Source of the DNA: a virus
Taxonomy: Duplodnaviria; Caudoviricetes
Virus record (IMG/VR): IMGVR_UViG_3300049910_000003
Span: 1-25,145 of that record
Direction: 5' to 3' (one strand)
Length of the DNA: 25,145 nt
Both the position numbers and the translations under genes were made by a program. The notes beneath the pieces are model-generated. The model did no database searches and was not told where the DNA came from. It saw nothing but the letters and a program-made list of their open reading frames with translations. Positions 1 through 25,145 of this stretch are shown piece by piece (within the stretch, counting starts at the first letter, position 1; every line of letters starts with the position of its first letter).

Positions 1-369
1 GCCAGCCGAAGACTTGCGCCATCTTAAAAACTCGGCCGCGTTTTTTTCGCGCGAAATATTTTCGCGAAACTTTTTTTGCGCGGTCGTGCCGCTATTGCGC
101 GCGGTTTTCTTTTTGTTTTCTATGCCGAAGGTGCCGCGTGTTCTTAACGCGCGTCGGGTCGCTACCTCTAAGCCGCGTCGGCAGTTGCAACTAACGCATG
201 CGGCTACAAGGTTGGATAGATCGAAGGCCGCGCCTCCGTCGGCTAGTGACCGTACGTGGTCAACGGTTGTTGCGTAACCGCCGCAGTACCGGCACCTGTA
301 CCCGTCACGGAGTAGGACGGTTACCCGCACCCGTCGCCACCTACGGGAGTCCCTAGGGTCACCCGACAT
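1..369 (-). CDS. HNH endonuclease (phage packaging-associated), 5' part; runs off the left end
   Basis: Not in the ORF track. My translation from ATG 369 is MSGDPRDSRRWRRVRVTVLLRDGYRCRYCGGYATTVDHVRSLADGGAAFDLSNLVAACVSCNCRRG..., with the W..R...RD.Y.C.YC...VDH...GG...NL...C..CN pattern. GAGGTGG SD upstream; no stop before nt 1. Confidence 0.9.
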   Translation of the reverse strand, partial: MSGDPRDSRRWRRVRVTVLLRDGYRCRYCGGYATTVDHVRSLADGGAAFDLSNLVAACVSCNCRRGLEVATRRALRTRGTFGIENKKKTARNSGTTAQKKFRENISREKNAAEFLRWRKSSAG

Positions 370-381
370 ATAGACCACCTC

Positions 382-426
382 ACCCGGACCCGGACTACCC
401 GGACCCGTTAGTACCCGGACCCGTTT
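382..426. repeat. Three direct repeats of ACCCGGACCCG at ~15-16 bp period
   Basis: Copies start at 382, 397 and 413, just upstream of the HNH ribosome-binding site. Confidence 0.8.
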
Positions 427-491
427 AGCCAGGCCACGAACACAAGCGTTAGTAGTACGCCTAGTAACACGACGATTGCTAGAACGATCAC
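408..491 (-). CDS. 27-aa single-transmembrane peptide
   Basis: GTG 491 lies 2 nt after the MTase stop. The product MIVLAIVVLLGVLLTLVFVAWLNGSGY is one hydrophobic helix. Confidence 0.5.
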   Translation of the reverse strand: MIVLAIVVLLGVLLTLVFVAWLNGSGY

Positions 492-493
492 GG

Positions 494-1441
494 TTAGGCC
501 TTGACGTATTGCAACAACTGTGCGCCTAGGTACTCCGTGTATGCGGGTGGTATGGCCTGTGCCAACTCTGCCCTAGTCATAGGCCAATCAATCCCCATTG
601 CCTGCCGTGCCTTTGCTATCCCTGCCTTACGTGATCGTCCGCCTACCGTCGTGCGTACTGTGTGACTAGGCCCACCACCCGTTACGTCTATCGGTTCAGG
701 TTGTAGGTAGTGCGTACATTCGGCCGTGAGTAGTAGAACGTTGCTACCAAACCGCCTGTGTCTGCGTACGCCTAGACCAAACGTGGTGCCGCACAGTGTG
801 ACGTACCACCCGTTCATTTCCACGGACGTACCAACCACGTTCTCTACGATCCACGGCACAGAGACAGAGGCCAGGCGTTCTAACGTGGCGTTGAGTAGAT
901 ACGCCTTGCCACGTTGTGTTGTCTTCGTGCGTAACGTTGAATGTTCCTGGCATGGTGGAGACGCGTGTATCGCGTCAAATCCATCTAGCGGGTACGTCAA
1001 TGCGTCGGCATTATGGAACGTGTATGGGTAGTGCGGTTGATCCACAATGTCTACGCCTACAACGTCAAACCCGGCACGGTGGTAACCAACGGCCGCACCA
1101 CCCGCGCCACAAAACAAATCTAAGAGGCGCGGCCTTTGTGACTTAGGCCGGCCAAACGTCACAGTCTCTACGTTCTGTGTTGTCACGTTGCGTTGTTCCT
1201 TTAGTTCTTTGCGCCGTTCCTTTGCCCAACGTTGTTCTATGCGCCACGTTGTTAACCCATGGTCAAGGCCTAGTAGGTCGTACCATGCCAACGCATCGCA
1301 CCATTGGCCTAGTGCTATGTAGTGCGCTACTAATCGTTGCGCCTCCGCATAACAAGGAACGGGAACGGCCGGAGGGAACAGGCCTTGCGCGTCCGGGATC
1401 GCACAACCGTTGACCCGAAGTATTACGCCGTCGCCTCTCAT
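494..1441 (-). CDS. DNA cytosine-5 methyltransferase (short phage type) with ~100-aa N-terminal extension
   Basis: Motif I LDLFCGAGG, motif IV ASPPCQ, motif VI IVENV, motif VIII-like RRHRRF and C-terminal AQAIPPAYT. Start moved to ATG 1441 because of the ATGA overlap with the VRR-NUC stop. Confidence 0.9.
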   Translation of the reverse strand: MRGDGVILRVNGCAIPDAQGLFPPAVPVPCYAEAQRLVAHYIALGQWCDALAWYDLLGLDHGLTTWRIEQRWAKERRKELKEQRNVTTQNVETVTFGRPKSQRPRLLDLFCGAGGAAVGYHRAGFDVVGVDIVDQPHYPYTFHNADALTYPLDGFDAIHASPPCQEHSTLRTKTTQRGKAYLLNATLERLASVSVPWIVENVVGTSVEMNGWYVTLCGTTFGLGVRRHRRFGSNVLLLTAECTHYLQPEPIDVTGGGPSHTVRTTVGGRSRKAGIAKARQAMGIDWPMTRAELAQAIPPAYTEYLGAQLLQYVKA

Positions 1442-1740
1442 TGTGCGGGTCCGGTCAAGTGCGCAGACTGTAGGCGCAGTTTCACTAGGCCAACGTCGGC
1501 GGGTCGCCATACGTGCGTCTCTATGCCGCAACGTTCAAACCGCCATAACACGTTCTCTTGTTCTAGGGTTAACCGGCCTTTGTCTGTCTTTAGTTCGGCA
1601 ACCATGTATTCGGGTGGTCTTAGTAGTTGTAGGTCCGGCCACCCGGCAACGACGCGTTTAGCTTCGTAAACGTGGAAGACCAACCACCCGCCATAACGCG
1701 CGAGGCGTACAACTTCCCTTTGCCATTCACGTTCGTTCAC
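1438..1740 (-). CDS. VRR-NUC domain nuclease (putative Holliday junction resolvase)
   Basis: E..WQ..V...GW.VFH...GWPDL...AELK..KGRLT.EQ signature. GTG 1740 overlaps the upstream TAG. Confidence 0.88.
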   Translation of the reverse strand: MNEREWQREVVRLARYGGWLVFHVYEAKRVVAGWPDLQLLRPPEYMVAELKTDKGRLTLEQENVLWRFERCGIETHVWRPADVGLVKLRLQSAHLTGPAQ

Positions 1741-1898
1741 TACAGGCCTACCGCGTCCACTAACCGTTGTAAGGCCTGGCGTTCGGCCTCGCCTAACTGC
1801 CGTTGCCATGACTCATACCGAATAACTTTGTCTCGTTCTATTAGCCAATCTAGGTAGATGATCGTCTGTAGTAATAGGCGTACGTCGTTTTCATCCAC
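1740..1898 (-). CDS. Hypothetical protein, 52 aa
   Basis: Not in the ORF track. GGAGAG SD, GTG start, product MDENDVRLLLQTIIYLDWLIERDKVIRYESWQRQLGEAERQALQRLVDAVGL, and a TAGTG overlap with VRR-NUC. Confidence 0.65.
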   Translation of the reverse strand: MDENDVRLLLQTIIYLDWLIERDKVIRYESWQRQLGEAERQALQRLVDAVGL

Positions 1899-1922
1899 GT
1901 TTCACTCTCCGTGTCGGGTGGC

Positions 1923-2037
1923 ACCGTTCAAGGCCTTGCCCGTCTGAACGGTTGAACGGTTGAACGGTTGAGGATTGAGGCCGTAGGGTTACCGTTCATA
2001 CCGTTCAACGTTCAAGGCGTGAACGGCCGTGAACGGT
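1923..2037. repeat. Iteron cluster (TGAACGGT/ACCGTTCA); putative replication origin
   Basis: Nine exact or near-exact copies in both orientations, at 1923, 1945, 1953, 1961, 1991, 2000, 2008, 2020 and 2030. They lie directly downstream of the primase-helicase stop. Confidence 0.8.
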
Positions 2038-2045
2038 GCATTTGC

Positions 2046-4040
2046 TCACTCTCTGTCGTCGCGCAGTTGCCAGTACCATTCGCCCGATTCACCGCGCACG
2101 GCCTCTGCGCGAATGTTGTTACGTGCGCGTTTTAGTGTTGAGTCGCTAAACCCTTGCCTCTCGCCTTCCCGGAAAATGTCGCTAGTACGAACGCGGCTAC
2201 CGTCCGCGAGTGTTTCCAATAGCCATACTTCGGCACGTTCTAACTTCGTGTCTCGTTCGTCGTTACTGCCTTTGGCTACTAGTTGGTCGGCCGTGTAATC
2301 GGCGTCTCCGTGCCATGCAATACGTGCGCAATCCCAACCATCGGCTTTAACAACAGAGAACGACAACGCCGAAGGCTTTTCGGCAAGGTTGGATTTCGTA
2401 ACCGCTATAACACGTTTGGTCGGGTCGCGCGGGTCTTCGGTAACGATCCACCCGGCACGCGCCGCGCCGATAATGCCGATACTGCCACCACCTCTATACA
2501 TGGCCGATACGCCGGGTGATTTGTTGAGGTGGCGAAGGCAGACGATCGCGGCCTTTGTGTGTTCGGCTAGTGCCGCCAACCGCATTAGTACGCCGCGCAT
2601 TGACGCGTCGTTATGGCTATTGACGTCGTGCGCGAGGTACGCAACTAACACGTCTACGATTACTAGTGCTACTTCGTGTTGTATCACTAGGCGTTCTAGT
2701 AGCGGTAAGTCGTTAGGCAGTACCAACGTGCGCGGGTCTTTGTTTGGTTCCATGACGGCTACGAATGCGAACGCGTGGCGTGGATCGCCTCCGGCCTCAA
2801 CGAACCGCGGTAGGACGGTATCGGCTAGGCCGTCTTCGGCAGTTAGAACCATGACGTTTCGTCGTAGTGGTCCGGCAAGGGTGCCGTCCGGGAATGCGCC
2901 ACCCGCACTAATCCGCGCCGCTATGTCTAACGCAACGGTTGACTTACCTAGTGCCGGGTCGCCATCTAGCATTGTGAGTTTGCCGCGCGGTAACCATTTC
3001 GGCCACAACCATTCGACTACTTCGCGTGTAATCGTCGTGAACGATCGCACTTCGGCCGCGCTAGGTGTTGCCGGATCAAACGCGGCTTTAGTGAACGGTG
3101 CCGGGTCGGGTGCAAGCGCGCGCGCCGCGCTTTGTAGGTCGCCTTCGTAGTTGAGTTGTGCGAACGCGCCGAACCGATCGTAAGAACGTTCCGACTCAAA
3201 CACGGTTGACGTACTAAATACCCACAACAGGCCGGAACCGTTATGGTTCGTCGTCGCGCTTATGCCGTCAGACTTGCCAGGCCGACGCCAATACGTCGTG
3301 CCATTCTGTTCAAACAACGGCAACCAACCGTGAGGTTCTAGTATCTCCGGCCAATCGTGCGCATTGTTGAACGCGTCGCCTGGCCGATCACCATTGCGCG
3401 CGCCGATCACGCTACGGCTAGGCATTTGGTCAAGAGACTTCGCCAACGCGTACAAAACTGCCCGTTCGTGCAACGTAAACGTTGGTATCGAGTCCGGGCC
3501 TCCGGCAAGTAGCCGCCACGGTTTGCCCGTAGGGTGCGTCTTCCCCGCGGACGGGTGCGTTACAACCCAACCACCTTCGCCGCGCGTCTCTAGCATCACC
3601 TTTACTTTGTCGGCCGGGTTGTCGTTTAGTTCGTCGTCGGTTGCGGGTCGCCTCGCTAGCTTCGTGTTCGCCATTGACGGCCCATCGGTACGAAAGAACA
3701 AGTGCAAACCGCCACTAGGCGTTTCCTCGCGGTAGCCGTGCCAGAGACGCGACCAAATGTCTTCGTAGCCGGAACGCATTAGCAAGCCGCGTAGATCGTC
3801 AACCATTGTGACCGCGCGCGCCTCAAACTCGATCATTTCTAGATACTCACTAACGGCACCGCATACAACGCCGATACCGTGCGCGCGTCTTAACCACGTT
3901 TGTATCTGACTAATGGCCGGCCTCTCTGTCTCATAAAGTTTCCATTCAACCGCGGGCCTCTTAGTGCCGTCGTTTGCGGCCGGGAGAACGCAACAACCGG
4001 CCGCGTACAATGCGGCCGCGAAGTCGTCTAGTTCTGACAT
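2046..4040 (-). CDS. Bifunctional primase/polymerase (Prim-Pol) fused to a RecA-like AAA helicase
   Basis: N-terminal VLPA...KRP..W, GIGVVCG, ETPSGGLHLFF and ETRGEGGWVV..PS motifs. Walker A GDPALGKST, AED, LVIVD, RHLNK and GS.G...AAR. Probable C-terminal winged helix. Confidence 0.92.
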   Translation of the reverse strand: MSELDDFAAALYAAGCCVLPAANDGTKRPAVEWKLYETERPAISQIQTWLRRAHGIGVVCGAVSEYLEMIEFEARAVTMVDDLRGLLMRSGYEDIWSRLWHGYREETPSGGLHLFFRTDGPSMANTKLARRPATDDELNDNPADKVKVMLETRGEGGWVVTHPSAGKTHPTGKPWRLLAGGPDSIPTFTLHERAVLYALAKSLDQMPSRSVIGARNGDRPGDAFNNAHDWPEILEPHGWLPLFEQNGTTYWRRPGKSDGISATTNHNGSGLLWVFSTSTVFESERSYDRFGAFAQLNYEGDLQSAARALAPDPAPFTKAAFDPATPSAAEVRSFTTITREVVEWLWPKWLPRGKLTMLDGDPALGKSTVALDIAARISAGGAFPDGTLAGPLRRNVMVLTAEDGLADTVLPRFVEAGGDPRHAFAFVAVMEPNKDPRTLVLPNDLPLLERLVIQHEVALVIVDVLVAYLAHDVNSHNDASMRGVLMRLAALAEHTKAAIVCLRHLNKSPGVSAMYRGGGSIGIIGAARAGWIVTEDPRDPTKRVIAVTKSNLAEKPSALSFSVVKADGWDCARIAWHGDADYTADQLVAKGSNDERDTKLERAEVWLLETLADGSRVRTSDIFREGERQGFSDSTLKRARNNIRAEAVRGESGEWYWQLRDDRE

Positions 4041-4052
4041 TGCGACAACCGC

Positions 4053-4313
4053 CTATAGGAAGTCGTGAATGCAATGCTGGCAGAATGCGATTCGATCGGC
4101 ACGGATAAACAACACTTTGATAAGGCCTCGCACAAACCAAACGTGCCGCCAACTGCCTTCGTCAAACGGCCGTGATTGCCAGTAGCCGCGAAGGTAGGCG
4201 CGTCGTAGTTCGCGCTTTGTTTGGTAGCAATGCTTGCATTCAAAACATTGCAAGTACGTTGAGGCCTCTAGTCGTTCTGCCGTGCCGTGGCTATAGCAAA
4301 ACACGTAGGACAT
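4053..4313 (-). CDS. Hypothetical Cys/His-rich (probable Zn-binding) protein
   Basis: GAGGTAGG SD; C..H, CFECKH and CQHC.HDF motifs. Confidence 0.7.
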   Translation of the reverse strand: MSYVFCYSHGTAERLEASTYLQCFECKHCYQTKRELRRAYLRGYWQSRPFDEGSWRHVWFVRGLIKVLFIRADRIAFCQHCIHDFL

Positions 4314-4326
4314 TTCCTACCTCAAA

Positions 4327-4374
4327 CGGCCTAGCGCGCGCGGGAAATGGCGGTAAACCGCGCGCGCTAGACCG
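4327..4374 (-). terminator. Strong intergenic stem-loop; terminator, attenuator or processing site
   Basis: Perfect 13-bp inverted repeat CTAGCGCGCGCGG (4331-4343 / 4358-4370). It extends to 17 bp with a G-U pair only in the minus-strand RNA and is followed by UUU. Confidence 0.65.
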
Positions 4375-4380
4375 CGATCG

Positions 4381-4653
4381 TTAGGCCGGTTGGTCGGCCG
4401 TGTCTGCGTCTTCGCCTTCGGGTGCGAGACGTACGAACACGACGGCACCGCGTGCGCGCGCGTCGAGTCCGTAGGTTTTGCGCAACGCCGTTGCGCGGCT
4501 GTACGCCTTGTTCTTATTGCCGTCGCAATCCACCTCAAACCATTCTCCCGGTTCTTTGTGGCATGCGTCGATCAAGTCCATAAAGGCACCCGCATTACGT
4601 GCGCGCCGTACTACAGATGGCGGGCCTTCGGACGGTTGGAAGTTAACGGCCAT
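4381..4653 (-). CDS. Hypothetical protein (possible small DNA-binding protein)
   Basis: Starts 3 nt after the upstream stop with a GAGGTG SD. The PGEW.....A.S.A..LR.....ARARG..VFVR pattern resembles small phage proteins. Confidence 0.7.
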   Translation of the reverse strand: MAVNFQPSEGPPSVVRRARNAGAFMDLIDACHKEPGEWFEVDCDGNKNKAYSRATALRKTYGLDARARGAVVFVRLAPEGEDADTADQPA

Positions 4654-4656
4654 GAC

Positions 4657-5970
4657 TTAGAACACCTCCGTTGCGTTGTCGTCGGGTGGCGAGTCGTAAA
4701 CCTTGTACGACCACGCGCCTTCACTGTCTTTCACAATGTCGGCAGTACGGCCGCTACGGCTAATGAACCGATAGCCACCCGGTACCGGATTCATTCGTAT
4801 TCGTTCGTTCTTAATGTCGTGTAGCCGCGCCTCAACGTGCGCTAGTTCGTCTGCCGTCAAGTCGCTAAACGATTCGACTAACTCACCGCGCCGGTTGACG
4901 GTTTCCAACAACGCCAACGCGTGGCGTCTGGCCTCGCGGTCTACGTTCTCTAGGTTCGGCCATTGGTCTTTCATGGTGGCGAAAATGCGCCGGATCGTCT
5001 TCGTTTTATCGTCGGCCGTTTCGCCTTCGGCGGGTGGTTCCCCTTCGGCCGGTTTGAATGCGACGGCCTCCGGCCGCGGTTCGTCTCTTCCTGGCGTAGT
5101 TTGTGACGGCACCGCGACCGGAGGCGCGCTAGGTGGCGCGGTTCCTGCCTCCGGCAATACGTGAGGTTCCGCGCCTACCTCTCCGCGGTCGATCCGTGGC
5201 CGCGGTTCGGGATATGTCACTACGTCAACGGCCGTGGCCGCGTTGACGGCCTCTACGTTGCGTTCTGCGGCCTCCGGAGGCGACAACTGGCCGGTTGGGC
5301 CGGGAACCTCCGGACGGCCGGGAGACGCCAACGCGGCCGGGTCTAGGCGTACGTCGAGTACCGGCACCGTGAAACGGTGCGGTTGGTCGCCCGGCCGTCG
5401 TGTTACCCGGTCTTCCAACCGTAGAGACGCAAACGCGAAGTGATCGCCACGGCGCGCCGCGATGTTTAACGCAAGGTCTATGGCCGTGCGCATTTCACCC
5501 GCGGCGTAATACGAATGCGTTTCTAGCCGCCAGCTACCGAAGTCCGCGAGGAACGGCAACAACACGGATAGCCGCGTAGTGTAACTACAAATGCGGTTGT
5601 TGTTGATCGCGCACAAACACGGCCGCGGTTGTTCTCCGCGGACTTCGGTAATACCGTCGCAACGCCGATCGCAACCGGCCGCGGTCCAATGCTCAAACCA
5701 TTGCGTAAAGCCGACTTCGGCCGGGATTAACACAACGTCAAACTCTCGCGCCTCTGTGAACACTTCGTATTGAGGCCCACTAGGCGCGGTCCAATCCGTG
5801 ACGGTTCCGCCTAGGTTCTCTGCCACGCGTTCTACCAACACTTGCCGCGGTGAGGTGAAACGGAATGCCTCTAGCGCGCGCGGCCTTGTGCCGTCTTTCG
5901 ATCGTACGGTTTCGCCTGTGCGTATGCGGCCTATCTCGGCCACGCGGCGTTGTAGATCAATAATCGGCAT
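4657..5970 (-). CDS. phiC31 gp3-like (recombination directionality factor-like) protein with Pro-rich linker and extra C-terminal domain
   Basis: N-terminus MPIIDLQRR..EIGRIRTG...RP..L..FRFTS, then C.RRCDG...PCLC...C..TTRLSV.LP....G.WRLETHSYYAA.E, matching my recollection of the Gp3-like family. Confidence 0.8.
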   Translation of the reverse strand: MPIIDLQRRVAEIGRIRTGETVRSKDGTRPRALEAFRFTSPRQVLVERVAENLGGTVTDWTAPSGPQYEVFTEAREFDVVLIPAEVGFTQWFEHWTAAGCDRRCDGITEVRGEQPRPCLCAINNNRICSYTTRLSVLLPFLADFGSWRLETHSYYAAGEMRTAIDLALNIAARRGDHFAFASLRLEDRVTRRPGDQPHRFTVPVLDVRLDPAALASPGRPEVPGPTGQLSPPEAAERNVEAVNAATAVDVVTYPEPRPRIDRGEVGAEPHVLPEAGTAPPSAPPVAVPSQTTPGRDEPRPEAVAFKPAEGEPPAEGETADDKTKTIRRIFATMKDQWPNLENVDREARRHALALLETVNRRGELVESFSDLTADELAHVEARLHDIKNERIRMNPVPGGYRFISRSGRTADIVKDSEGAWSYKVYDSPPDDNATEVF

Positions 5971-6331
5971 TCGGGTTACCGTCCGGCCACGTTGCGTTGT
6001 CGTGACAATCGTTGCAACACCCTTGTTCGTCTTTCTCGCGGTACGTCATTACGCGTTGGCAGTACGGGCAAACTGGCGTTGTCTCGTTCATTTCGTTTAC
6101 CTCTACGTAGTCAAACTCTCCGTCCGCGCCGATTAAGTAGCCGCGGTTTGGGTTGCGTTGACTGTGAACCGATACGCAACAACCGCATTCGTTTACGTGC
6201 CATATCGGCAAGTCGCCATTTTCACGGATCGCCTCACAACACGCGACCATTGCGGTTACTTGCGCGCGCGGCAACGTGACGTTGCCGTGAGGCGTCGGGA
6301 TTGTGATTACGCCTGTGCCGTTAGCCGTCAT
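5957..6331 (-). CDS. Hypothetical Cys-rich protein
   Basis: GGAGG SD; overlaps both neighbours; ECGCC, CPYC and CCNDC motifs. Confidence 0.65.
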   Translation of the reverse strand: MTANGTGVITIPTPHGNVTLPRAQVTAMVACCEAIRENGDLPIWHVNECGCCVSVHSQRNPNRGYLIGADGEFDYVEVNEMNETTPVCPYCQRVMTYREKDEQGCCNDCHDNATWPDGNPNADY

Positions 6332-6533
6332 GGTTGAAATCCTCCGGCCACAACACGGCCGCTACACGTTCCGCGTGCGGTTGCATCCGATCGCGCGCGC
6401 CAATCAATCCACCCTTTACGGCGTCGGCAATCACTGTGTGCCGGTTATGGCCTCGCAAGTCTGCGCACGGATAACCGGCCTTGCGTTCACACTTCGGACA
6501 ATCGACGGTTTGGGCCTCTGTGTGCGTCACCAT
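6321..6533 (-). CDS. Small phage zinc-finger protein
   Basis: CPKC..K.G.PC...PH.ER motif. Start moved to ATG 6533 (TAATG overlap). Confidence 0.7.
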   Translation of the reverse strand: MVTHTEAQTVDCPKCERKAGYPCADLRGHNRHTVIADAVKGGLIGARDRMQPHAERVAAVLWPEDFNHDG

Positions 6534-8419: not shown

Positions 8420-8455
8420 TCCCGGCACAATGCGAGGCGCGGCGCAGACGCGCAA
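8420..8455 (-). promoter_or_regulatory. Putative housekeeping-sigma promoter producing a leaderless mRNA for the HTH gene and early operon
   Basis: TTGCGC(8455-8450)-N17-CATTGT(8432-8427)-N7-GTG. Confidence 0.55.
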
Positions 8456-8466
8456 TCGGCCGGAAC

Positions 8467-8836: not shown

Positions 8837-9238
8837 TCAACCGGCACCGCCGATCGCGCACGCGGCGCACAGATGGAACGTGAGGCCTCCGTACGCCTCT
8901 ACGGGTACGCCGGGATCGTCGGCCGGTTGCACCCGGCCGCATTGTTCGCATTGCCATTCGCCACGGTTCCCGGCCTGTATGTCGGCAACTGTGGCGTTGG
9001 CTACCAACACGGCCGCGGTTTCGTCGTCGCCATATTCGTTCACCAGGAAACGCCGTAGGTTGTCCGCGGGTCCGGTCACGCGGTACCACCAGGCCCAACT
9101 AGCCAACGGGTGCGCACTTGACGTGTCTTCGATTTTGACGCCGTAACGTTCGGCTATCTCAACTAGTGACGCGTAACCGCAACAACCGTCGTACGGGTGT
9201 TCGTGGCAATCAATCTCTAACGTGTAGATAACTTTCAT
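8837..9238 (-). CDS. Hypothetical protein with C-terminal CxxC...CxxC zinc ribbon, coupled to the integrase
   Basis: ATGA overlap with the integrase stop; CEQC...CAAC. Confidence 0.7.
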   Translation of the reverse strand: MKVIYTLEIDCHEHPYDGCCGYASLVEIAERYGVKIEDTSSAHPLASWAWWYRVTGPADNLRRFLVNEYGDDETAAVLVANATVADIQAGNRGEWQCEQCGRVQPADDPGVPVEAYGGLTFHLCAACAIGGAG

Positions 9239-10722
9239 GCGGCTTCGCCTTCGGTTTCGGGTGCCGTGTCCGGCACGAAGTTAATACGATCGGCTGTAAA
9301 CGGTGCCTTCGGCCGTGCGGGTGGCGCGATCACGGCACGGTGTTTCGTCGCCAGGAACAAGGCGCGGTGTTCGTCGTCGGTCAACTTGCCGGAGGCCAAC
9401 GCCGCGCCTAGTGCGTCACCCTTGCCTAGCCAACGTTCTACGGGTCCGGCACTACCGGCCTTGCGCAACTGCGCCAACGCGTCGGTTTCGTCTGCGTCTA
9501 CGGCCGCTAACGCACGGTTGTACGCATCCATGTTGCGAAACTGGCCGTTGCCTAGGCCGTCGTCAATCATCTTGCGCCGTTCACCTATGCGGCCTAGCCG
9601 TTCCAACGCGACGGTTCGTGCCTTGCTATCTCCGGCCAACATTGAACGAAACGCCTTGCGGTTGGATTCGTGGCGAATCCACGCGTACGCCTTCGTTTCG
9701 AGTATGTCGCTACGGCAATAGTTGTGGCCGCATGCGCGACGGCCTGCCGACGCGTTGCACTTGTAGTTAGTTCGGCCTGTGTGATCTACAGACGCCAACA
9801 TGGTTGCGCCACAGATGGAACCGTCCGGCATGGTTCCGCCACAGATAACGAAACCTGTCCAACGGGTGGCCGCGCCGCGGTTCTTTCCACGTACACGACT
9901 ACCGAACAACTCGCGTAGTTCGGCGTACGTCTTATCGTCAAAAATCGGTTCGTATGGCCGATCTACGATTTCCCCGCGGAACGTTCGGTAGCCTCCGTAA
10001 ACTGGGTGGTTGAAGATACGGCTAATCATGCCAGCTTGCCACGGCGTTTGTTCTTTGGTCTTCGTGCGCAGTACCGGCGTTATGCCGTCAACCTGGCCGG
10101 ACCATTCCCGCGCTATCTGACTTGCGCTAATGCCGTTCAACAACCGTTGTGCGTCTTCCCGTAGGCGTTGCACTTCGGGTGCGTAGTGTTCGTGCGTTGA
10201 ATCGTTATCGTTGCCGTGGCGGGTGCCGTAAAAACCAACCATGAAAACGCCACCCGTTGGCCTACCTTCGTCGCGCAATCGTCGCAACGTGCGTTGTAAC
10301 CGATTGGAGAGTTTGCCTACTTCCCGATCGGCCGCGGCAACTTCCAACCGTGCCGCGTATTTGCCGTCTTCGGTTCGTAAGTCGTAGGTACGTTCGTCCG
10401 TGACGATTTGCCAAAACTTCCCGGCTTCGGCCAGGTCTATTAACTTTTCCAACTCGCGAGGCATGCGGACTAGCCGATCATGCATAACGGAAACGATCGT
10501 ATCTACTTCGCCTTGTTCGATTGCCTCTAGTAGTTGTAGCCATTCCGTGCGTTTGCGCGTAGCGAAACGACTTGCCGAAATGTCGTTGTCCGTATACGTG
10601 CGTTCGATCGTTAGGCCTAGGTCTTTCGCCATAGCCTCGCATTCTCGTTTTTGCCATTCCACGTTTCGGCCGACTTCGTTTAGGTCTTTGCTTCGTCGGC
10701 AGTAGCTAACCGCGCTTGCCAT
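9235..10722 (-). CDS. int: Large serine recombinase (phage integrase)
   Basis: YCRRS catalytic motif, DNDISAS and DRLVR; recombinase domain; Zn ribbon (C..CG..M...Y.C...C); coiled coil. Start moved to ATG 10722, which follows a purine-rich SD. Confidence 0.95.
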   Translation of the reverse strand: MASAVSYCRRSKDLNEVGRNVEWQKRECEAMAKDLGLTIERTYTDNDISASRFATRKRTEWLQLLEAIEQGEVDTIVSVMHDRLVRMPRELEKLIDLAEAGKFWQIVTDERTYDLRTEDGKYAARLEVAAADREVGKLSNRLQRTLRRLRDEGRPTGGVFMVGFYGTRHGNDNDSTHEHYAPEVQRLREDAQRLLNGISASQIAREWSGQVDGITPVLRTKTKEQTPWQAGMISRIFNHPVYGGYRTFRGEIVDRPYEPIFDDKTYAELRELFGSRVRGKNRGAATRWTGFVICGGTMPDGSICGATMLASVDHTGRTNYKCNASAGRRACGHNYCRSDILETKAYAWIRHESNRKAFRSMLAGDSKARTVALERLGRIGERRKMIDDGLGNGQFRNMDAYNRALAAVDADETDALAQLRKAGSAGPVERWLGKGDALGAALASGKLTDDEHRALFLATKHRAVIAPPARPKAPFTADRINFVPDTAPETEGEAA

Positions 10723-10898
10723 TTCCCTTTTTCCCTTTCCACGTTGCGCCGGACCCGATCGGACCCGGCCGGGTTGGTCTTCCCGACGTTGGCGAATATC
10801 GAACATGCGCCGACGCCTACGCGCGATTCTAGCCTAGAGAGGCAGGCGGCTACGTCCGGCCTCTGGCCTAGGTTCTAGGCCGCTCGCCTCTAGGAACG

Positions 10899-17588: not shown

Positions 17589-17591
17589 GGC

Positions 17592-18393: not shown

Positions 18394-18396
18394 GGC

Positions 18397-18909
18397 CTAG
18401 GCCGCGGGTGTTGTACCGCTACTAGGTGCCGTTGACGTTGACGAAGACGCACTAGCGGCCGTTGTTGTAGGCGGCACGATGAGAAACTCCGGTTCGCCTT
18501 GAATGGCTAGTTCAATGTCGCTATCGGAGGCCTCATTGACGTTGGCCGCAATGAACGGCACCGTAGGAACGCGACACTTCCCTTTCATTAGTGGATTGGT
18601 CGCGCTAACGGGTTGCGTTGCATCCGGCAAAAACTCGAAATCTACGACTTGACCCGCCAACGGGTGCAATACCTGCCATGGGCCGTCTGTGTCGTAGTTT
18701 TGGTAAATGCTCAACGTCAACGTATGGTGAGCAACGCCGTAGACACGGTACGAACCGCAAAACGTGTCATAGTCGTTCGTGTCTTGATCGGCCGCATGTT
18801 CCACCTGGTGAGCCGCGCATCGTAGTTCTTTCAAGTCCGGATCAATGCCGACTTTGATTGACGGCTTCGTCAGAATGAATGGCGGAAACTCTACGTCGGT
18901 AACTGTCAC
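18397..18909 (-). CDS. Major tail (tube) protein
   Basis: Position; strong AAAGGGA SD; TFCG and S..NP...G motifs; acidic and beta-rich. Confidence 0.8.
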   Translation of the reverse strand: MTVTDVEFPPFILTKPSIKVGIDPDLKELRCAAHQVEHAADQDTNDYDTFCGSYRVYGVAHHTLTLSIYQNYDTDGPWQVLHPLAGQVVDFEFLPDATQPVSATNPLMKGKCRVPTVPFIAANVNEASDSDIELAIQGEPEFLIVPPTTTAASASSSTSTAPSSGTTPAA

Positions 18910-18923
18910 GGCGGTTCCCTTTC

Positions 18924-19298
18924 TTAAAACGTCACGGCCGCGCGCAGTCCTATACGCGTGGCTATGTAGCCAAGTGCCGCGATGTCAAAGACGCGCGGCC
19001 CACTAATGCGCACGATTCCCCAACCGTTAGAGTCATCGCGCAAACGTGCGATTACGTCGGCAACCATGGCCTCTAAGACGTTGAGAGTTTCGCCTGGTTC
19101 AACACGGCCGGCCACTGGCATAACTACCGGGTGAACAATGCCGGTACAAACGCCGGTTGACTCAAACCATGGTTCGTCCCATAGAAGCATGACGCACGGA
19201 ACATCAATAGCGTCTACAAGGTCTTTGTAGAGTTGGTATTCGTTGTCTGTCGGCGCTAACACTGTCGCCAACGTTGTCCGCACGTCATTGAGTTTCAC
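18924..19298 (-). CDS. Putative tail terminator
   Basis: Lies between the adaptor and tail tube genes; GTGA overlap at 19295-19298. Confidence 0.65.
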   Translation of the reverse strand: MKLNDVRTTLATVLAPTDNEYQLYKDLVDAIDVPCVMLLWDEPWFESTGVCTGIVHPVVMPVAGRVEPGETLNVLEAMVADVIARLRDDSNGWGIVRISGPRVFDIAALGYIATRIGLRAAVTF

Positions 19299-19642
19299 GC
19301 GAGGCCAAACTGTTGTTTCCATAGCGGGTCAATAACCCAACTATGACGGCCGAAGGAATCCTTCGGCGCGCGTAGTGCGCCTGTATCTGCGTAACCAACA
19401 ACGCCGAACGCCGCGTCATTGGCCTTGTACCATTCGACCGCGCGCGCAATGGCTACGGATACGATCACGTCCGGCGTCGGTTCCGGTAACGGATCGTCTT
19501 CGTAGCGGTCTAGTGATGCGTCGATTTCGTCGCTAGCCGCGTCAACGCACCGTTGTAGGTACGGCGTGTTCGTTGGCGTTGCCGTTGTGCGTACGGCCTG
19601 TGCCAACTGTTCCGGCGTTGCGTACGATCGTTCCCTAGCCAT
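19295..19642 (-). CDS. Head-to-tail adaptor (gp6/gp15-like)
   Basis: YAT.EQL...C.DAAS.EID...AVE.YK...A.FGV.G pattern; immediately after the capsid gene. Confidence 0.78.
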   Translation of the reverse strand: MARERSYATPEQLAQAVRTTATPTNTPYLQRCVDAASDEIDASLDRYEDDPLPEPTPDVIVSVAIARAVEWYKANDAAFGVVGYADTGALRAPKDSFGRHSWVIDPLWKQQFGLA

Positions 19643-19660
19643 TGCGCTTACGGCCTTCGG

Positions 19661-20950
19661 TTACTTACCGCTAGCGGCCGTTGAGGCCGACAACGGAGGT
19701 GGCGCAGGTGGCACAAGGTGAACGAACGCGGCCGGTTCCATGGCCTCTGACGCAAACGCGCCAATGACGCCTACCTCCATGCCGCCAATCGACGGTTCGA
19801 CCGCGCGCAACTCAACTGGCGCACCCGCGGTTTCGGCACACAACAACAGTTGTGAGTTACCGACGATCACGGCCGGGTTGCTAAGGCCGGGTGACGTAAC
19901 CAACGTCATTCCGGCAATAGAACCTTGACCCGTTGTCGCATTGATCGTACCGGCCGCGTTGAATACGGGTGCCATGTTTGACGCAAGACCCGCCAACTTA
20001 AAGCCCGTAGCAACGTCGGCCCAAATGGTATCGGCCCGAACGCGTGCGTTGGTCATTACCATTCCGGCCGCGGCAACGATCGCGGCATACCAACCGGGAA
20101 AGTCGTCACTAGCAACCGGCACACTGTCGGGTGTTGCCGCCGCGACGATTGTTGCGCCTGCCGCGGTTTCCGTTTGGATTGCGTAGGCCTCTGCCGCCAG
20201 TTGGAACCAAAGCAACAGCGCGTCCGGCACAGTCCAGTTGATCGTTTGCCATGAAAGATCACCCGCGCCTAGGAACGTGTCCGCTAGCACTTCGTTCATG
20301 GCAACAACCATCTTTTGTGACGGTGTTTCGGTTTTCTCTGCGGCCTGCTTTGAGACGGTCGGCCGTTGTGTGATCTTCGGGTATGTCAACTTGCCGTTTT
20401 GCAACGTGATTTGACGCGCGGACGTAACGATCGGCCGTGCCGTACTGATTACGTCGATTATCTGCGCCAAGTGTTGCGGAGGCAGTAGGCCGGGAACATC
20501 CGAAGTAATCGTGTTCGCAACGGCGCGCGTTAGTACGCGTTCCCTTGCCTGTTCCCGCGTCATACCGGCACGAACCGCGATCGAATCAAACCGCGCGATG
20601 ATTTCGTCGCGTGCGTACTCCGCAAACGTGCGGTACAAGACTTGATTGCCGGTACCGCGCGCGCGGTCGTTCTGTTCGTCGTCGTTACGCCGGTTCTCCG
20701 GCACGGATACCCGCGCACGTTCCAACACGGCCCGCGCGTCGCGTGACTGTTCCCGCGTTTCCTCAATATCGAGTTGCAACGCGATTTGCGGTTCTAGGTC
20801 CGTGAGGCGTTGACGTTGACGCGTCAACAACTCTCGTTCGGCCTCTGACGGATCGCGGCCGTCGTCTTCGATCGCGTGTAGTACGTCGTCAATCTGCGCG
20901 TTGATCGAATCACGTTCCGCCGCGAGGCGTTCTAGTACGGCATTACGCAT
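19661..20950 (-). CDS. Major capsid protein, HK97 fold, with N-terminal coiled-coil scaffold (delta) domain
   Basis: Charged helical N-terminus, GLLPP...IID.I...RP and Q.AEK.E motifs; GAAAGGGA SD. Confidence 0.92.
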   Translation of the reverse strand: MRNAVLERLAAERDSINAQIDDVLHAIEDDGRDPSEAERELLTRQRQRLTDLEPQIALQLDIEETREQSRDARAVLERARVSVPENRRNDDEQNDRARGTGNQVLYRTFAEYARDEIIARFDSIAVRAGMTREQARERVLTRAVANTITSDVPGLLPPQHLAQIIDVISTARPIVTSARQITLQNGKLTYPKITQRPTVSKQAAEKTETPSQKMVVAMNEVLADTFLGAGDLSWQTINWTVPDALLLWFQLAAEAYAIQTETAAGATIVAAATPDSVPVASDDFPGWYAAIVAAAGMVMTNARVRADTIWADVATGFKLAGLASNMAPVFNAAGTINATTGQGSIAGMTLVTSPGLSNPAVIVGNSQLLLCAETAGAPVELRAVEPSIGGMEVGVIGAFASEAMEPAAFVHLVPPAPPPLSASTAASGK

Positions 20951-20988
20951 GACTGTTTCCCTTTCAAACGTCGTGTTCGTCGTCTGTC

Positions 20989-21053
20989 CGGGAGGCCGTC
21001 TACCTACGGGTTGCCGCGTGATACGCGGGAGGCCGTCTACGTACGGGTTGCCG
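20989..21053. repeat. Two 28-bp direct repeats (1 mismatch) in the capsid gene leader
   Basis: CGGGAGGCCGTCTAC(C/G)TACGGGTTGCCG at 20989-21016 and 21026-21053. Confidence 0.9.
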
Positions 21054-21067
21054 GTTACCTCGCGCGG

Positions 21068-21664
21068 TTACTGGCCGCGCAGTTTCGCTAGCCGATCGTC
21101 TAACGCCTTGTTCGGTACTGGCCGCAACGCCTGTAGTTCGCGTGACAACGCCTCTACGGGTGCGCTACGTACCGATTCGATTAGTGCGCCTTTGTAGGCC
21201 GGATCACGTACTAGGCCTACATGGTCAAGATGGCAGGCCGCGCGCACGACTACGCCACGCGGGCCGTTGAGAGAACGCAACGGTACGAAACCGACGCTAA
21301 AGCCGTCGATTAGTTCGGCTTCGATCATTGCTAACGCTTGTTCGGCCGCGGCGCTACGTTCCATCGCGCGGAACGACCCCCAAAGGCCGTCGTTGCGTTC
21401 CTGTAGTTCGATTGAAGGTCCGATTACCTCTAGTACCGAATCACTGTGACCGTACCGCAAGTCAACACGACGGCCCGCGGCCGTGGAACGCACGGCGCGC
21501 TTGAATGATCCTGGCGCGAACATTTCATCGTAAAGCGGGCCGTTGGGATCGTCGGCTACGCGTGCCGGTTCGTTGTATGGAACAACGCGGCCGGTAATCG
21601 TGCGGCCGTCTCCCGTTAGCTTGGCGTGATCGAATGCGCGCAACAACACCGTTTGTTCTGTCAT
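21068..21664 (-). CDS. HK97-family prohead maturation protease
   Basis: G..VPY, E.FAPGSF, L.YGH, DGFSVGF and L.HVGLV..PAY.GA motifs. Confidence 0.92.
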   Translation of the reverse strand: MTEQTVLLRAFDHAKLTGDGRTITGRVVPYNEPARVADDPNGPLYDEMFAPGSFKRAVRSTAAGRRVDLRYGHSDSVLEVIGPSIELQERNDGLWGSFRAMERSAAAEQALAMIEAELIDGFSVGFVPLRSLNGPRGVVVRAACHLDHVGLVRDPAYKGALIESVRSAPVEALSRELQALRPVPNKALDDRLAKLRGQ

Positions 21665-22869
21665 TGTGATTGAACCACCGTGAGAGGTGCCGGTACTGAC
21701 ACGTTCTGTGCGTCCGGCGCAGTAACGCCGGGTTGTTCCGTGAGGCCTAGTGCCTCGCCTTCGGCCAATGGTGGCAAGTTAAGTACGCGTGCGCGTACTT
21801 CGTCGGCCGTCACAACTTGCGCGTTAAGTAAGGCAATGTAGCTACTAACCATTGTCTCAAACGCGGGCCGGAGAACTAGCGACGGATCAAACTCAATCCA
21901 GTTGCCGCCCGGTAGCCAGTTGCTAAGGCCTGCCGTCAAGGCATGCGCGTTAGGCAGTAGTTCGGCGCGCCACCATATTTCAAACAGTTGTACCGGGTTT
22001 TGATACGTGAGGCCACCCGACATAGCAAGGTTCAAGAGAAATGCCGGTACTCCGAACGCGCTTGCTATCTGCTTCGTATCAAACTCGCGCAACTCCAATA
22101 GCATTAAGTCGCGCGGTGAAAACGCCAGTACCGAAAAGTCTAGGTTTTGGTCTAGTACCGCGGGTGCGCCTTGCCTATTACTGACGGCCGCTACCCATTG
22201 CGCCTGTAGGTCACTAGCTTGTTTCTGCGTTAGCTTGCCTTGATTCCATTTTAGAACCGTGGCAGGAACGCCGGAACGATCGAAGTTGTTAGCCGCGAAC
22301 GTTTCACTAGACCATGCCGACGCGAGGTTAGACCAATACGCTTGCAACGCGGGAGTACCGCGCAACGCACCCGCGCGCGGGTCACGTTTGATATGTAGTA
22401 CGTCTTCCCGCGCCAATGCGTAGCCGTTACTTTCGTAGATCGGCGCGCCGTATTCGTCGGCCTGTACCGACATTGTTACCGGGTCCAACACAATCCACGT
22501 TGCCGGAAACCCGGTAGCGAGACGTGACGTTACGTACAGGAACGTTTCACCGCGCGAGTACCGCGACCATACGGCCGCGAATATCGCCTCCGCAATATCG
22601 TTGTAGTATTCCGGTTCCGGGTTTTGAGTCCAGGCCGGTTGCGGTGAACGGCCGTTATACTTTAACGGCATTGCGCTTACTTGTTGAGACGTGAGTTGTA
22701 GACAACGGTTAACCGCGCCGAGTTTCTCCATGAATAGCGGTGACATTGAACCGCCACTAAGGCTATTCACGAACGACGCGATTAGCGGGTCTATGTTGCT
22801 AAAGCCTGTGCCGTCCGATAGAACCGGCGTACCGACTAAGGAACGTTGCCGTTTCTTTAGGCCCAACAA
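21661..22869 (-). CDS. Portal protein, HK97 family
   Basis: VLHIK...G, SP.D..LLE.R.F....IA.AFGVP..L and TY.N motifs; TTG start after a GGAG SD. Confidence 0.92.
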   Translation of the reverse strand: MLGLKKRQRSLVGTPVLSDGTGFSNIDPLIASFVNSLSGGSMSPLFMEKLGAVNRCLQLTSQQVSAMPLKYNGRSPQPAWTQNPEPEYYNDIAEAIFAAVWSRYSRGETFLYVTSRLATGFPATWIVLDPVTMSVQADEYGAPIYESNGYALAREDVLHIKRDPRAGALRGTPALQAYWSNLASAWSSETFAANNFDRSGVPATVLKWNQGKLTQKQASDLQAQWVAAVSNRQGAPAVLDQNLDFSVLAFSPRDLMLLELREFDTKQIASAFGVPAFLLNLAMSGGLTYQNPVQLFEIWWRAELLPNAHALTAGLSNWLPGGNWIEFDPSLVLRPAFETMVSSYIALLNAQVVTADEVRARVLNLPPLAEGEALGLTEQPGVTAPDAQNVSVPAPLTVVQSQ

Positions 22870-23157
22870 CTACCGTCTCCGTAGACCTGGCGCATGTACG
22901 GTTCCATGCGCACGACTTACCGTCTTTATTTGGCCTTGTGTCCGTGTCCGTGCAACCTTCGCAACCTTCGGATAGCTACCACGCGTGTTGCGTTGTGACG
23001 CACGGCTTAAAGCGTTGCGGTGAATGTTGAGGCGTTGCTTTTCGCTAATACCCGCGCGTCTTGCCTGTGCCTTTGTAGGCATTGGGTATTTGCGTTGCGA
23101 CGGGATCGCAAAGGCCGACTTCGGTAATGCGTTGCGTTGTTTTGCGGTTAGTGCCAT
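22870..23157 (-). CDS. Small very basic protein (LT.KQR..LP.SAFA.P..RKYP; DUF6582-like by recollection)
   Basis: GGAGG SD before ATG 23157; 95 aa, Arg/Lys-rich with a single acidic residue. Confidence 0.8.
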   Translation of the reverse strand: MALTAKQRNALPKSAFAIPSQRKYPMPTKAQARRAGISEKQRLNIHRNALSRASQRNTRGSYPKVAKVARTRTQGQIKTVSRAHGTVHAPGLRRR

Positions 23158-23198
23158 ATGTTTTTGCCTCCATGCGACACGGCCCGCGTTTGCTAAAC

Positions 23199-23227
23199 AG
23201 AATGGAACCGAACGATCACAAACGCAA
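23199..23227 (-). promoter_or_regulatory. Putative internal late promoter between terL and the head genes
   Basis: TTGCGT(23227-23222)-N17-CATTCT(23204-23199) in the 82-nt intergenic gap. Confidence 0.55.
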
Positions 23228-23239
23228 GTGCAATCTGCG

Positions 23240-24688
23240 CTAGTAGATCGAAGGTGCCTCAACCACAGGCGTAGAGGCCAACTCAATAGCGCGCCACCAG
23301 GCCAGGCGAACGGCTAGCGCGGCGTCAACCCAACGGGTCGGGTCGGCCGGACGTTGCAAACGTATTGACCCGTCACCTAACCGCCTTGCTACTAACGCGT
23401 CCATTTGTGACACGATTAGCGGGTGGTGGTCGTGCGCTATGCGGCCTTCCACTATTGCACGGAATAGTTCATCGGCCGCGGGTCCGTCGTCTTTGTTTTG
23501 CCAACGGTAAACGGCTACGCCGTCGTTCTCTATAGCCTTAAACAAGTGCGGCCGGATACGTGGCGCAACGGCTATCTCTCGCACGTTGTACCGTGCGCAC
23601 GCGTCGTCAATCACGGCGCGTAGTTCAAAGTCCGTTGCGGCCTCTGCGGCCCAACCGTAGAACGCGGACCCGTCTAACGTGACGCCAACAACGGCCGTTG
23701 TACGCCGGTACGTGCCTTCAACGCCTAACACAACTTCGGTACCTTCGGCCGGTACTGGCGACATAGGGCAGGTATCGAACGCGCCGACAGGTAGCCAACC
23801 GCTAACACTGTCAACCCATTGCCCTAGGTGGTAGACACGAAACGACGGTTCGTCAATCAGTACCGCTTGTGTTGCCAGTGCGTCTTCGCTAAGGAAACCG
23901 GCACGTAACGCCGGGTTAGCGTCACGCCATGCGGCTTTGTCGGTTAGTTCGCAACCGTCCGGCGCGGACCATTCCAACCATGCAACGCCTTGCGGCAACG
24001 TGTTTGTCTTCGCACGTTCGCGCATGCGGAACATGACGTTTTCCTCAAAGCCTGGCGTACCAATCCCTACGATTGTTGCGTCCGGTCGTTTGCCTAGCCT
24101 CGCAATCAAGCTCTCTACAACGTCATCGTTCGCGAATCCAAACTCATCCACAATGCAAAGGTTGAAGTTGAGGCCTTGCACCGCGTCAAGTTTGTTCGGA
24201 TGCGCTTTGAGTTGTGATCCTGTAGGCCTGTATTCAAGGATGCCGTCCGACGCATAAAACGCGAACAACGGCACCAACTCCGGACTTGATTCGACCATGC
24301 GTTTAGCCGTCTCAATGATTTGGCCGGCCTGTTCTTTCTTAGTCGCTACAACGTCTATCTCCGCATAGTCGTCGCCACGCGCCATACGTTCCAACGCTAA
24401 AGCCGCGAGTAGCGTTGTCTTACCGTTGCCGGTTGGAACGCTAATGAACGTGGCACGGTTGCCGTAGATAGCGCGAATCATTCTCTCTTGAAACGCGGCA
24501 ACCCGTATCTTGCCTCCGGCGTGATAGCCAGTAGGAACACGTACGTACGTCTCTAACCATTGCCGAACACGACGGCTAAGGCTTGTGTGTTGCCAACCGT
24601 GCCAAGGCGGCAACTCCGTAAGTCGTAGCGGTTTCTTAACTCCGGCGTGTTGTAGTACGCCGTGGTCCGGCCGGTTGTAATCGGCCAT
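23240..24688 (-). CDS. terL: Terminase large subunit
   Basis: Walker A PTGNGKT, A.KKEQA, Walker B CIVDE, coupling motif IGTPG, W..ANPAL and C-terminal VDAA.A. Start moved to ATG 24688 (AAGGGA SD). Confidence 0.93.
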   Translation of the reverse strand: MADYNRPDHGVLQHAGVKKPLRLTELPPWHGWQHTSLSRRVRQWLETYVRVPTGYHAGGKIRVAAFQERMIRAIYGNRATFISVPTGNGKTTLLAALALERMARGDDYAEIDVVATKKEQAGQIIETAKRMVESSPELVPLFAFYASDGILEYRPTGSQLKAHPNKLDAVQGLNFNLCIVDEFGFANDDVVESLIARLGKRPDATIVGIGTPGFEENVMFRMRERAKTNTLPQGVAWLEWSAPDGCELTDKAAWRDANPALRAGFLSEDALATQAVLIDEPSFRVYHLGQWVDSVSGWLPVGAFDTCPMSPVPAEGTEVVLGVEGTYRRTTAVVGVTLDGSAFYGWAAEAATDFELRAVIDDACARYNVREIAVAPRIRPHLFKAIENDGVAVYRWQNKDDGPAADELFRAIVEGRIAHDHHPLIVSQMDALVARRLGDGSIRLQRPADPTRWVDAALAVRLAWWRAIELASTPVVEAPSIY

Positions 24689-24699
24689 TGGTCTTCCCT

Positions 24700-25008
24700 T
24701 TACGCTTGTAACTCCCAACGATCCCGGCACACAAGGTCAATGGCCGCGGCCGATTGCCGTTCCGTGAAACCGCTACGCCGTAACGCGGAGTAGATATCGC
24801 GAAACGAACGCACCGTTAGGCCGCAATGGTCGGCCATGATCCGGCAGGCCTGTTCCATACGTTCCGCCGCGATCCGATCACCCGGCCGACGATCCCAACG
24901 GCGCACGGCCACCAGGAACCTCTCTACGGCCTCCCGGTTCGCCTCCGGCCCATCTAGGCCAGGCGTCACCTCTCCGGCCGTCTGCGGGCCGTGTAGCGGT
25001 TCCGTCAT
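24700..25008 (-). CDS. Hypothetical protein in the terminase small-subunit position
   Basis: AGGAAGG SD, helical 102 aa, directly upstream of terL. No diagnostic motif is recognised. Confidence 0.6.
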   Translation of the reverse strand: MTEPLHGPQTAGEVTPGLDGPEANREAVERFLVAVRRWDRRPGDRIAAERMEQACRIMADHCGLTVRSFRDIYSALRRSGFTERQSAAAIDLVCRDRWELQA

Positions 25009-25145
25009 GCCGTCCGGCCTTCCTGGCCGAACGCACCCGGCCAAACATGCCGTGAATCCGCGGTAACTGCCGTGTTTGGTAAACTGTCGGCCTTTTTTGC
25101 GCTGATCGTTGCGGTTTCGGTCGTTTGCGGCGGAAATCGGCCCGA
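25005..25145 (-). CDS. Probable 3' part of the HNH ORF after circularisation (46 aa plus stop)
   Basis: The frame continuing from nt 1 to nt 25145 is open (SGRFPPQTTETAT...GRTA*). It ends at TGA 25005-25007, in an ATGA overlap with the next start at 25008. Confidence 0.6.
   Translation of the reverse strand, partial: SGRFPPQTTETATISAKKADSLPNTAVTADSRHVWPGAFGQEGRTA

What the first reader, a model, noticed from the sequence alone, without database searches (positions are those of the whole stretch)
1..25145. Genome-wide avoidance of the non-palindromic words CAGC/GCTG and GAGC/GCTC while palindromes are abundant
Seen: reading nt 1-3000 by eye I find one CAGC (nt 3) and one GCTC (nt 2044) against about 27 TAGC/GCTA. 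The same skew appears to hold across the window. Leu is often CTA/TTG/TTA rather than CTG/CTC, which is atypical for GC-rich actinobacterial DNA. GGCC, CCGG, CGCG, GTAC, ACGT, GATC and even CTAG are common. Established: type II restriction avoidance usually depletes palindromes. Inference: strong selection against SAGC (S = C/G) points to a host defence or DNA-modification system with a short asymmetric target. It could also reflect a context-specific mutational process.
Basis: partly seen in the sequence, partly recalled or inferred. Interest (0 to 1): 0.75.

Follow-up and report, generated by a model that had tools for sequence, protein, structure and literature searches.

The report
Soil phage purged of defence words
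A small soil phage has lost about 95% of the four-letter words CAGC and GAGC from both DNA strands, along with dozens of other short words including half of all six-letter palindromes, likely because its unknown host carries many site-specific DNA defences, some of which would read unusually short one-directional targets.

Summary
The depletion is real, but it is not a single-motif story and palindromes are not generally abundant. The window is a whole 25 kb integrase-bearing soil phage. SAGC occurs 25 times in coding DNA against 247-plus in each of 100 codon permutations. It is low on both strands, in all 12 motif-by-frame cells and in non-coding DNA, and stays significant after fitting all 3-mers and 112 palindromes. 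That points to selection on the word, not cytosine deamination. But AATT is absent, 31 of 64 six-base palindromes are absent from coding DNA, and CCCC, GCCC, TCAG, CATC, CCAAG and 27 asymmetric 6-mers are purged too. Best reading: cumulative restriction-site avoidance that includes asymmetric four-base targets (inferred; host and enzymes unknown). Among 110 related soil-phage clusters none loses both words, but 16 purge a trinucleotide (mostly CAG or GAG), scattered over the tree. Known phosphorothioate motifs are over-represented among the avoided words (post hoc test), and GAGC is one; this is the main rival. The scan noted CAG purging before in other phage DNA (e1-6089108, e1-6067021).

The parts
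1..25145 (.). Whole phage genome (57.7% GC) with genome-wide depletion of CAGC/GCTG and GAGC/GCTC: 30 sites left, 13 on + and 17 on -, 1-6 per 2.5 kb
   Evidence: independent 25,149-base variant contig in run X3
1..25145 (.). Other purged words: AATT (0), GCWGC, 31 of 64 six-base palindromes, CCCC, GCCC, TCAG, CATC, CCAAG, CCGAG, AGAAG, AGGAG, GGGAC, CTCAG, and 27 further asymmetric 6-mers absent from coding DNA
494..1159 (-). Compact C5 cytosine DNA methyltransferase (221 aa stretch; the ORF can be read back to 1531); tested as a cause of the depletion and not supported
   Evidence: PF00145, phrog_363
2046..4040 (-). Prim-Pol plus AAA_25 primase-helicase
9235..10806 (-). Large serine integrase (Resolvase + Recombinase domains); temperate lifestyle inferred
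19661..20950 (-). Predicted major capsid protein (by position after the prohead protease; no Pfam hit); query for relatives
21661..22869 (-). HK97-type portal protein; used for relatives and the tree
23240..24730 (-). Terminase large subunit

Best explanation
The phage has removed CAGC and GAGC from both strands by synonymous codon choice, together with dozens of other short words, likely under selection by a large set of host restriction-modification systems, some of which would recognise asymmetric four-base sites. Shown: depletion, both strands, all frames, non-coding DNA, independence from 3-mers and palindromes, lineage-specific word sets in relatives. Inferred: that palindromic gaps come from ordinary Type IIP enzymes, that SAGC and the many ...AG words come from adenine-methylating asymmetric systems (Type IIG, III or IIA-like), and that the low GC (58% vs 65-73% in most relatives) and odd Leu usage are by-products of the purge.
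For: 25 vs at least 247 SAGC in 100 codon permutations. All 12 motif-by-frame cells are low, e.g. GCT|G 2/64.8, xCA|GC 2/60.0, xxG|CTC 0/41.0, so any escape base is used. SAGC penalty -2.0 +/- 0.2, dLL 65.8, after all 32 3-mers and 112 palindromes. The same genome lacks AATT, 31 of 64 six-base palindromes and 27 asymmetric 6-mers where 0.1 are expected. Across 80 related loci of 10 kb or more, loss of palindromes goes with trinucleotide depletion (rho -0.39, p 3e-4). Depleted lineages are scattered on a 39-row portal tree (11 changes, shuffled mean 12.1), as expected for host-imposed, changeable specificities. CAGC, GACC, CCRAG and AGGAG are reported as non-palindromic methylation motifs in H. 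pylori (PMC3983042 Table 6, passages). Eco57I-type m6A methyltransferase domains pass the cut-off in 90 of 151 genomes of the candidate host order (the tally includes unpublished G047; the family also matches non-IIG enzymes).
Against: A survey of about 4000 viruses found no avoidance of Type I or IIG sites, rare avoidance of Type III sites and weaker avoidance in temperate phages (PMC6286503, abstract and passages). No strand bias (13 vs 17), which Type III escape would predict. Penultimate-A grammar is not significant: 16 of 26 5-mers vs 47% background, p 0.10, and 4 of 27 absent 6-mers vs 42%. 18 recalled Type IIS 5-mers are not depleted as a class (p 0.41). 30 sites remain, which an efficient nuclease would still cut. 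No methylation-based enzyme known to me explains the three-base purges in relatives. The host is not identified.
Confidence: 0.6

Rival explanations
1. GAGC/GCTC (and part of the CAG and CTC loss) is avoided because it is the consensus of a host phosphorothioate system (Dnd or BREX type 4), which acts per site at low probability and so gives graded, both-strand depletion.
For: GPSAGC/GPSCTC is a mapped Dnd motif; NCTC, GAAG and GACG are BREX-4 motifs; CAG was mapped in a gut metagenome (PMC12914056 sections 9, 10, 12). GAGC has the strongest independent penalty of the SAGC pair. In 110 related clusters PT words are over-represented among purged words: 3-mers 9 of 329 testable cells vs 23 of 2784 (p 0.005), 4-mers 11 of 639 vs 22 of 10161 (p 2e-6), non-palindromic 4-mers only 5 of 430 vs 16 of 9369 (p 0.002). 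Blind fits returned GAMG (L112, L146) and GAWC (L122, L141). sspABC-like loci: DUF4007 in 9 of 151 Acidimicrobiales genomes, 8 loci read.
Against: The enrichment test was chosen after seeing the data, and its cells are not independent; GATC and GGCC are also common Type II sites (recalled). DndC passes the cut-off in only 1 of 151 genomes. The Ssp motif CCA is 0.74 in the window and had 0 hits in relatives, as did GACG. GATC, GGCC and GAAC are not depleted in the window. CAGC is not a GNNC word, and CAG is not depleted in ACAGA, ACAGG or ACAGT. Passages read on SspE, SspFGH and Dnd do not show that site number sets phage survival.
Confidence: 0.25
2. The phage's own C5 methyltransferase marks SAGC/GCTS and deamination erodes the word.
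For: The gene is present; the C-to-T products CAAC/GTTG and TAGC/GCTA are enriched.
Against: Frames where only the A/T base is synonymous are depleted as strongly (GCT|G 2/64.8, GCT|C 3/28.9, xCA|GC 2/60.0, xGA|GC 3/28.4). Only 4 of 63 clusters with this methyltransferase show a trinucleotide purge, against 14 of 53 with a portal match. AATT has no C.
Confidence: 0.03
3. CRISPR PAM avoidance.
For: PAMs are short and asymmetric, and PAM depletion is reported (PMC4246573 passages; PMC12174588 abstract).
Against: Reported effects are small and need comparison groups; SAGC is down about twentyfold; the AAG PAM is 0.85 here. Spacers were not searched.
Confidence: 0.04
4. The phage simply mirrors a host with this composition.
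For: It is temperate by gene content and the host is unknown.
Against: SAGCSAGC occurs in 151 of 151 Acidimicrobiia genomes, hundreds of times in those of 2 Mb or more, and above its reversed control in the 1 Mb ones; no fetched phage locus shares the 4-mer profile (best r 0.44 of 98 loci; 0.42 of 97).
Confidence: 0.03

Closest known systems
Restriction-site avoidance in dsDNA phages (Rusinov et al. 2018, PMC6286503)
   Same: Near-complete loss of many 4-6 base palindromes (AATT, 31 of 64 six-mers).
   Different: Here asymmetric 4-mers are purged on both strands in an integrase-bearing phage; that survey found avoidance almost only for orthodox Type II sites and weaker in temperate phages.
Hemimethylated non-palindromic motifs of Type III-like systems in H. 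pylori (PMC3983042 Table 6)
   Same: CAGC, CCRAG and AGGAG are listed there and are purged here.
   Different: Unrelated host; motifs not assigned to enzymes there; no strand bias here.
Dnd and BREX type 4 phosphorothioation (PMC12914056)
   Same: GAGC/GCTC is an exact Dnd motif; CAG, CTC and GAAG are PT motifs that recur as purged words in relatives.
   Different: Described in gut bacteria; phage avoidance of PT motifs was not found in my searches; CAGC is not a described PT 4-mer.
MANTIS / Gao_RL (bioRxiv 10.64898/2026.09.23.753747, abstract and passages)
   Same: Asymmetric target inferred to leave depletion in phage genomes.
   Different: 6-base sites, strand-biased depletion, not seen in temperate phages; here 4 bases and both strands.

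Membership tests
Type IIP restriction-site avoidance | Palindromic 4-6 base sites under-represented beyond codon composition | tested here: met
   AATT 0/63, GCWGC 1/56, TGGCCA 0/10.8, CCCGGG 0/8.3, GGCGCC 1/18.5; 31 of 64 six-mers absent
Type IIP restriction-site avoidance | Host encodes nucleases for these sites | not testable with these tools
   host not identified; no REBASE
Type III RM target | Short asymmetric site containing adenine | tested here: met
   all 32 NSAGCN 6-mers have 0-3 copies
Type III RM target | Escape by loss from one strand only | tested here: not met
   CAGC 8 and 9, GAGC 5 and 8 on the two strands
Type IIG / BREX-1 m6A target | Adenine next to last in the motif (recalled grammar) | tested here: inconclusive
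   16 of 26 5-mers (p 0.10); 4 of 27 6-mers, below background
Type IIG / BREX-1 m6A target | Such enzymes in the candidate host group | tested here: inconclusive
   PF07669 over cut-off in 90 of 151, NF033452 in 1 of 151 (tallies include unpublished G047); host assignment unproven
Dnd phosphorothioate target | GNNC consensus such as GAGC/GCTC | tested here: met
   met for GAGC only; CAGC is not GNNC
Dnd phosphorothioate target | dndC in the candidate host group | tested here: inconclusive
   1 of 151 over cut-off; genomes incomplete, host unknown
Ssp phosphorothioate target | CCA is the purged word | tested here: not met
   CCA 0.74 in the window; 0 hits in relatives
5mC deamination footprint | Loss only where the C is a synonymous position | tested here: not met

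The most novel reading that the evidence does not exclude
Soil actinophages of this small HK97-portal family record, in their codon choice, a class of host DNA defence that reads only 3-4 asymmetric bases and switches specificity between lineages (CAG, GAG, GAGC, GAAG, GAWC, CAC, GCA). The vocabulary matches phosphorothioate consensus sequences, so this would be genomic evidence that phages evolve away from phosphorothioation targets, and the window's genome is a lineage that has stacked many such purges until its GC fell by about ten points.
Probability: 0.25. Interest if true: 0.78.

Novelty: new variant of a known kind. Interest (0 to 1): 0.52.

Why it matters
Site avoidance is thought to be almost confined to palindromic Type II sites and virulent phages. 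A temperate phage with twentyfold, both-strand loss of asymmetric four-base words, in a family where 16 of 110 clusters purge a trinucleotide, says that uncultured soil bacteria likely carry defences with targets shorter than most described enzymes. The purged words give a ready list of predicted motifs to look for in long-read methylomes or PT maps of soil, and a way to match these phages to hosts.

Tried and rejected
Assembly artefact: rejected; run X3, from another study, holds a 25,149-base contig with 277 differences over the laid stretch. Read by eye, none of the 40 listed differences creates SAGC (contexts); about 2 would be expected, so this is weak, and the other 364 rows were not shown. 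RNA-level selection: rejected, both strands and non-coding DNA are depleted. Bipartite site: no fixed base within 14 nt of 29 residual sites apart from no C at -2, which other purged words explain. Union of palindromes: SAGC survives the fit. Primase recognition site: the window's Prim-Pol matched none of the fetched loci, and 78 proteins from 12 loci showed no replication gene shared by purged lineages; loci are partial, so not excluded. Host search: portal kin lie in Acidimicrobiales and Gaiellales bins, but G001:C400 is a 26,750-base contig of phage genes, not a proven prophage; cultured phages match at under 30%. Portal scan with the single protein found nothing. Ten paper searches listed no report of SAGC avoidance; the library lacks most subscription papers and REBASE, and bioRxiv supplements were closed. 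Runs X7-X9 give no habitat evidence.
Full report
What the window is. G000 is the window itself, one 25,145-base virus record. Pfam finds terminase, portal, prohead protease, amidase, serine integrase, Prim-Pol/AAA, a PD-(D/E)XK nuclease, HNH and a compact C5 methyltransferase among 30 ORFs scanned. Seven of nine listed runs hold it or part of it, all soil metagenomes, two possibly its source. Run X3 holds a 25,149-base variant contig, so the composition is no assembly artefact. Portal kin lie in Acidimicrobiales and Gaiellales bins, but no prophage junction was found, so the host is unknown.

The observation. Whole window: CAGC 8, GCTG 9, GAGC 5, GCTC 8. In 30 ORFs (21,640 bases) SAGC occurs 25 times; 100 permutations that keep proteins and codon usage give at least 247. 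Against a base-weighted synonymous null the ratios are 0.06 and 0.05; AAGC is 0.47 and TAGC 1.39. Non-coding DNA shows 2 vs 36.8 for each word. All 32 NSAGCN 6-mers have 0-3 copies. A conditional-logit fit with all 3-mers and 112 palindromes still gives SAGC -2.0 +/- 0.2; fitted apart, GAGC is -2.6 and CAGC -1.45, because GCWGC and CAG absorb part of CAGC.

AATT is absent (63 expected), GCWGC is 1 vs 56, and 31 of 64 six-base palindromes are absent from coding DNA; some have low expectations, but TGGCCA 0/10.8, CAATTG 0/10.0, TTCGAA 0/8.4, CCCGGG 0/8.3 and GGCGCC 1/18.5 do not. CCCC 0.06, TCAG 0.17, GCCC 0.25 and CATC 0.27 are low; 26 of 451 testable asymmetric 5-mers fall under 0.25, and 27 of 1074 asymmetric 6-mers are absent where 0.1 is expected. 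Common palindromes such as GGCC and CGCG are likely the words left over. In the greedy fit the C and G weights rise from about 0.5-0.6 to 1.2 once motif penalties are included, so the 58% GC is likely a by-product (inference).

Selection or mutation. All 12 motif-by-frame cells are depleted. In two frames per word only the A/T base can change silently, so 5mC deamination by the phage's methyltransferase cannot produce the pattern. Across clusters the methyltransferase does not predict purging (4 of 63 vs 14 of 53 portal-bearing clusters). Both-strand loss excludes an RNA-level cause; lack of strand bias argues against classical Type III escape.

Relatives. Scans with capsid, methyltransferase and a portal alignment gave 195 loci. 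Loci under 4 kb were dropped; 173 sequences including the window formed 116 clusters, of which 110 others with GC of 57% or more served as background. None is flagged for both CAGC and GAGC; five are flagged for GAGC and eight for CAGC, mostly through trinucleotide loss. 16 of 110 have a GC-rich trinucleotide under 0.4 of the family median: CAG 7, CTC 3, GCA 3, ACC, CAC and GGA 1 each, on both strands and in all frames where tested, while controls L001 and L003 match expectation. On a 39-row portal tree, with labels that I set by hand, the purged label needs 11 changes (shuffled mean 12.1): no clustering, and neighbours avoid different words. Earlier notes of this scan describe CAG purging in two other phages; these are unchecked AI notes and not evidence.

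Mechanism. Absolute gaps at palindromes fit orthodox Type II restriction (established pattern, PMC6286503, abstract and passages). For SAGC I commit to asymmetric restriction-modification at 0.6 for the whole reading: the genome is already a broad restriction avoider, such methyltransferase domains are common in the candidate host order (tally includes unpublished G047), and CAGC is a reported non-palindromic methylation motif (PMC3983042 Table 6). Against it stand that survey's finding of no Type I/IIG avoidance, the failed strand-bias test and the inconclusive adenine-position tests. The rival is phosphorothioation (0.25): GAGC/GCTC is an exact Dnd motif (PMC12914056 section 10), and PT words are over-represented among the family's purged words, but the test is post hoc, DndC is in 1 of 151 genomes, DUF4007 in 9 of 151 and 5 of 301 phylum-wide, and the Ssp motif CCA is barely touched. 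The 5% of sites left could reflect weak per-site cost or decay after a host change; I could not separate these.

Literature seen. Named sections and passages: PMC12914056. Abstract and passages: PMC6286503, MANTIS preprint. Passages: PMC3983042, PMC4246573, PT-seq preprint, PMC13251355, PMC8092258, PMC10470545, PMC11842806, PMC12707154. First fifth: PMC12904381. Abstract: PMC12174588. Ten searches listed no report of SAGC avoidance; supplements were not read and motif tables there may bear on novelty. Enzyme-site names not cited to a paper are recalled.

Verdict. Real and strong, a new variant of restriction-site avoidance that reaches asymmetric four-base words in a temperate phage; enzyme unknown. 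Interest 0.52, higher if the phosphorothioate link holds for the family.

Noticed in passing
L099 (also L100, L154, L155), L122, L141, L123, L109, L020, L043: CAG/CTG purged 3-10 fold on both strands and in all frames tested (L099 27 vs 280; L122 88 vs 473). L099 is among the window's closest relatives (capsid 67%, terminase 65%) yet avoids GGCC, which the window enriches.
   Followed up: partly
L049 (L029, L031), L165 (L110), L150, L012: GAG/CTC purged (L049 84 vs 657; L165 117 vs 621); L049 also lacks GATC (0 vs 140); L165 also purges CAA/TTG.
   Followed up: partly
L112, L146, L122, L141, L142: Blind motif fits returned GAMG (GAAG plus GACG, the pair reported for one BREX-4 PT system) in L112 and L146, GAWC in L122 and L141, GMAG in L142.
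   Followed up: partly
L114, L119, L017, L102, L015: Other lineage-specific trinucleotide purges: CAC, GCA and CAA, ACC, GGA, RCCC.
   Followed up: no
window 6078-6440: Variants in other soil runs carry an 83-base replacement at 6078-6161 and a dense block of differences and small indels at 6203-6440, likely an exchanged module in two small ORFs.
   Followed up: no
G001:C400 (L199, L200): A 26,750-base contig of phage genes with a serine integrase lies in an Acidimicrobiales bin; its 4-mer profile is ordinary (70% GC).
   Followed up: partly
L201-L208, L196: Cysteine desulfurase, DUF4007 and a long downstream ORF in tandem (sspABC-like) in 8 Acidimicrobiales loci; one genome (G043) also has a dndC locus.
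   Followed up: partly
window 494-1159: The compact C5 methyltransferase belongs to a very large family (8000 of 8000 scored candidates hit) whose specificity I could not find.
   Followed up: no
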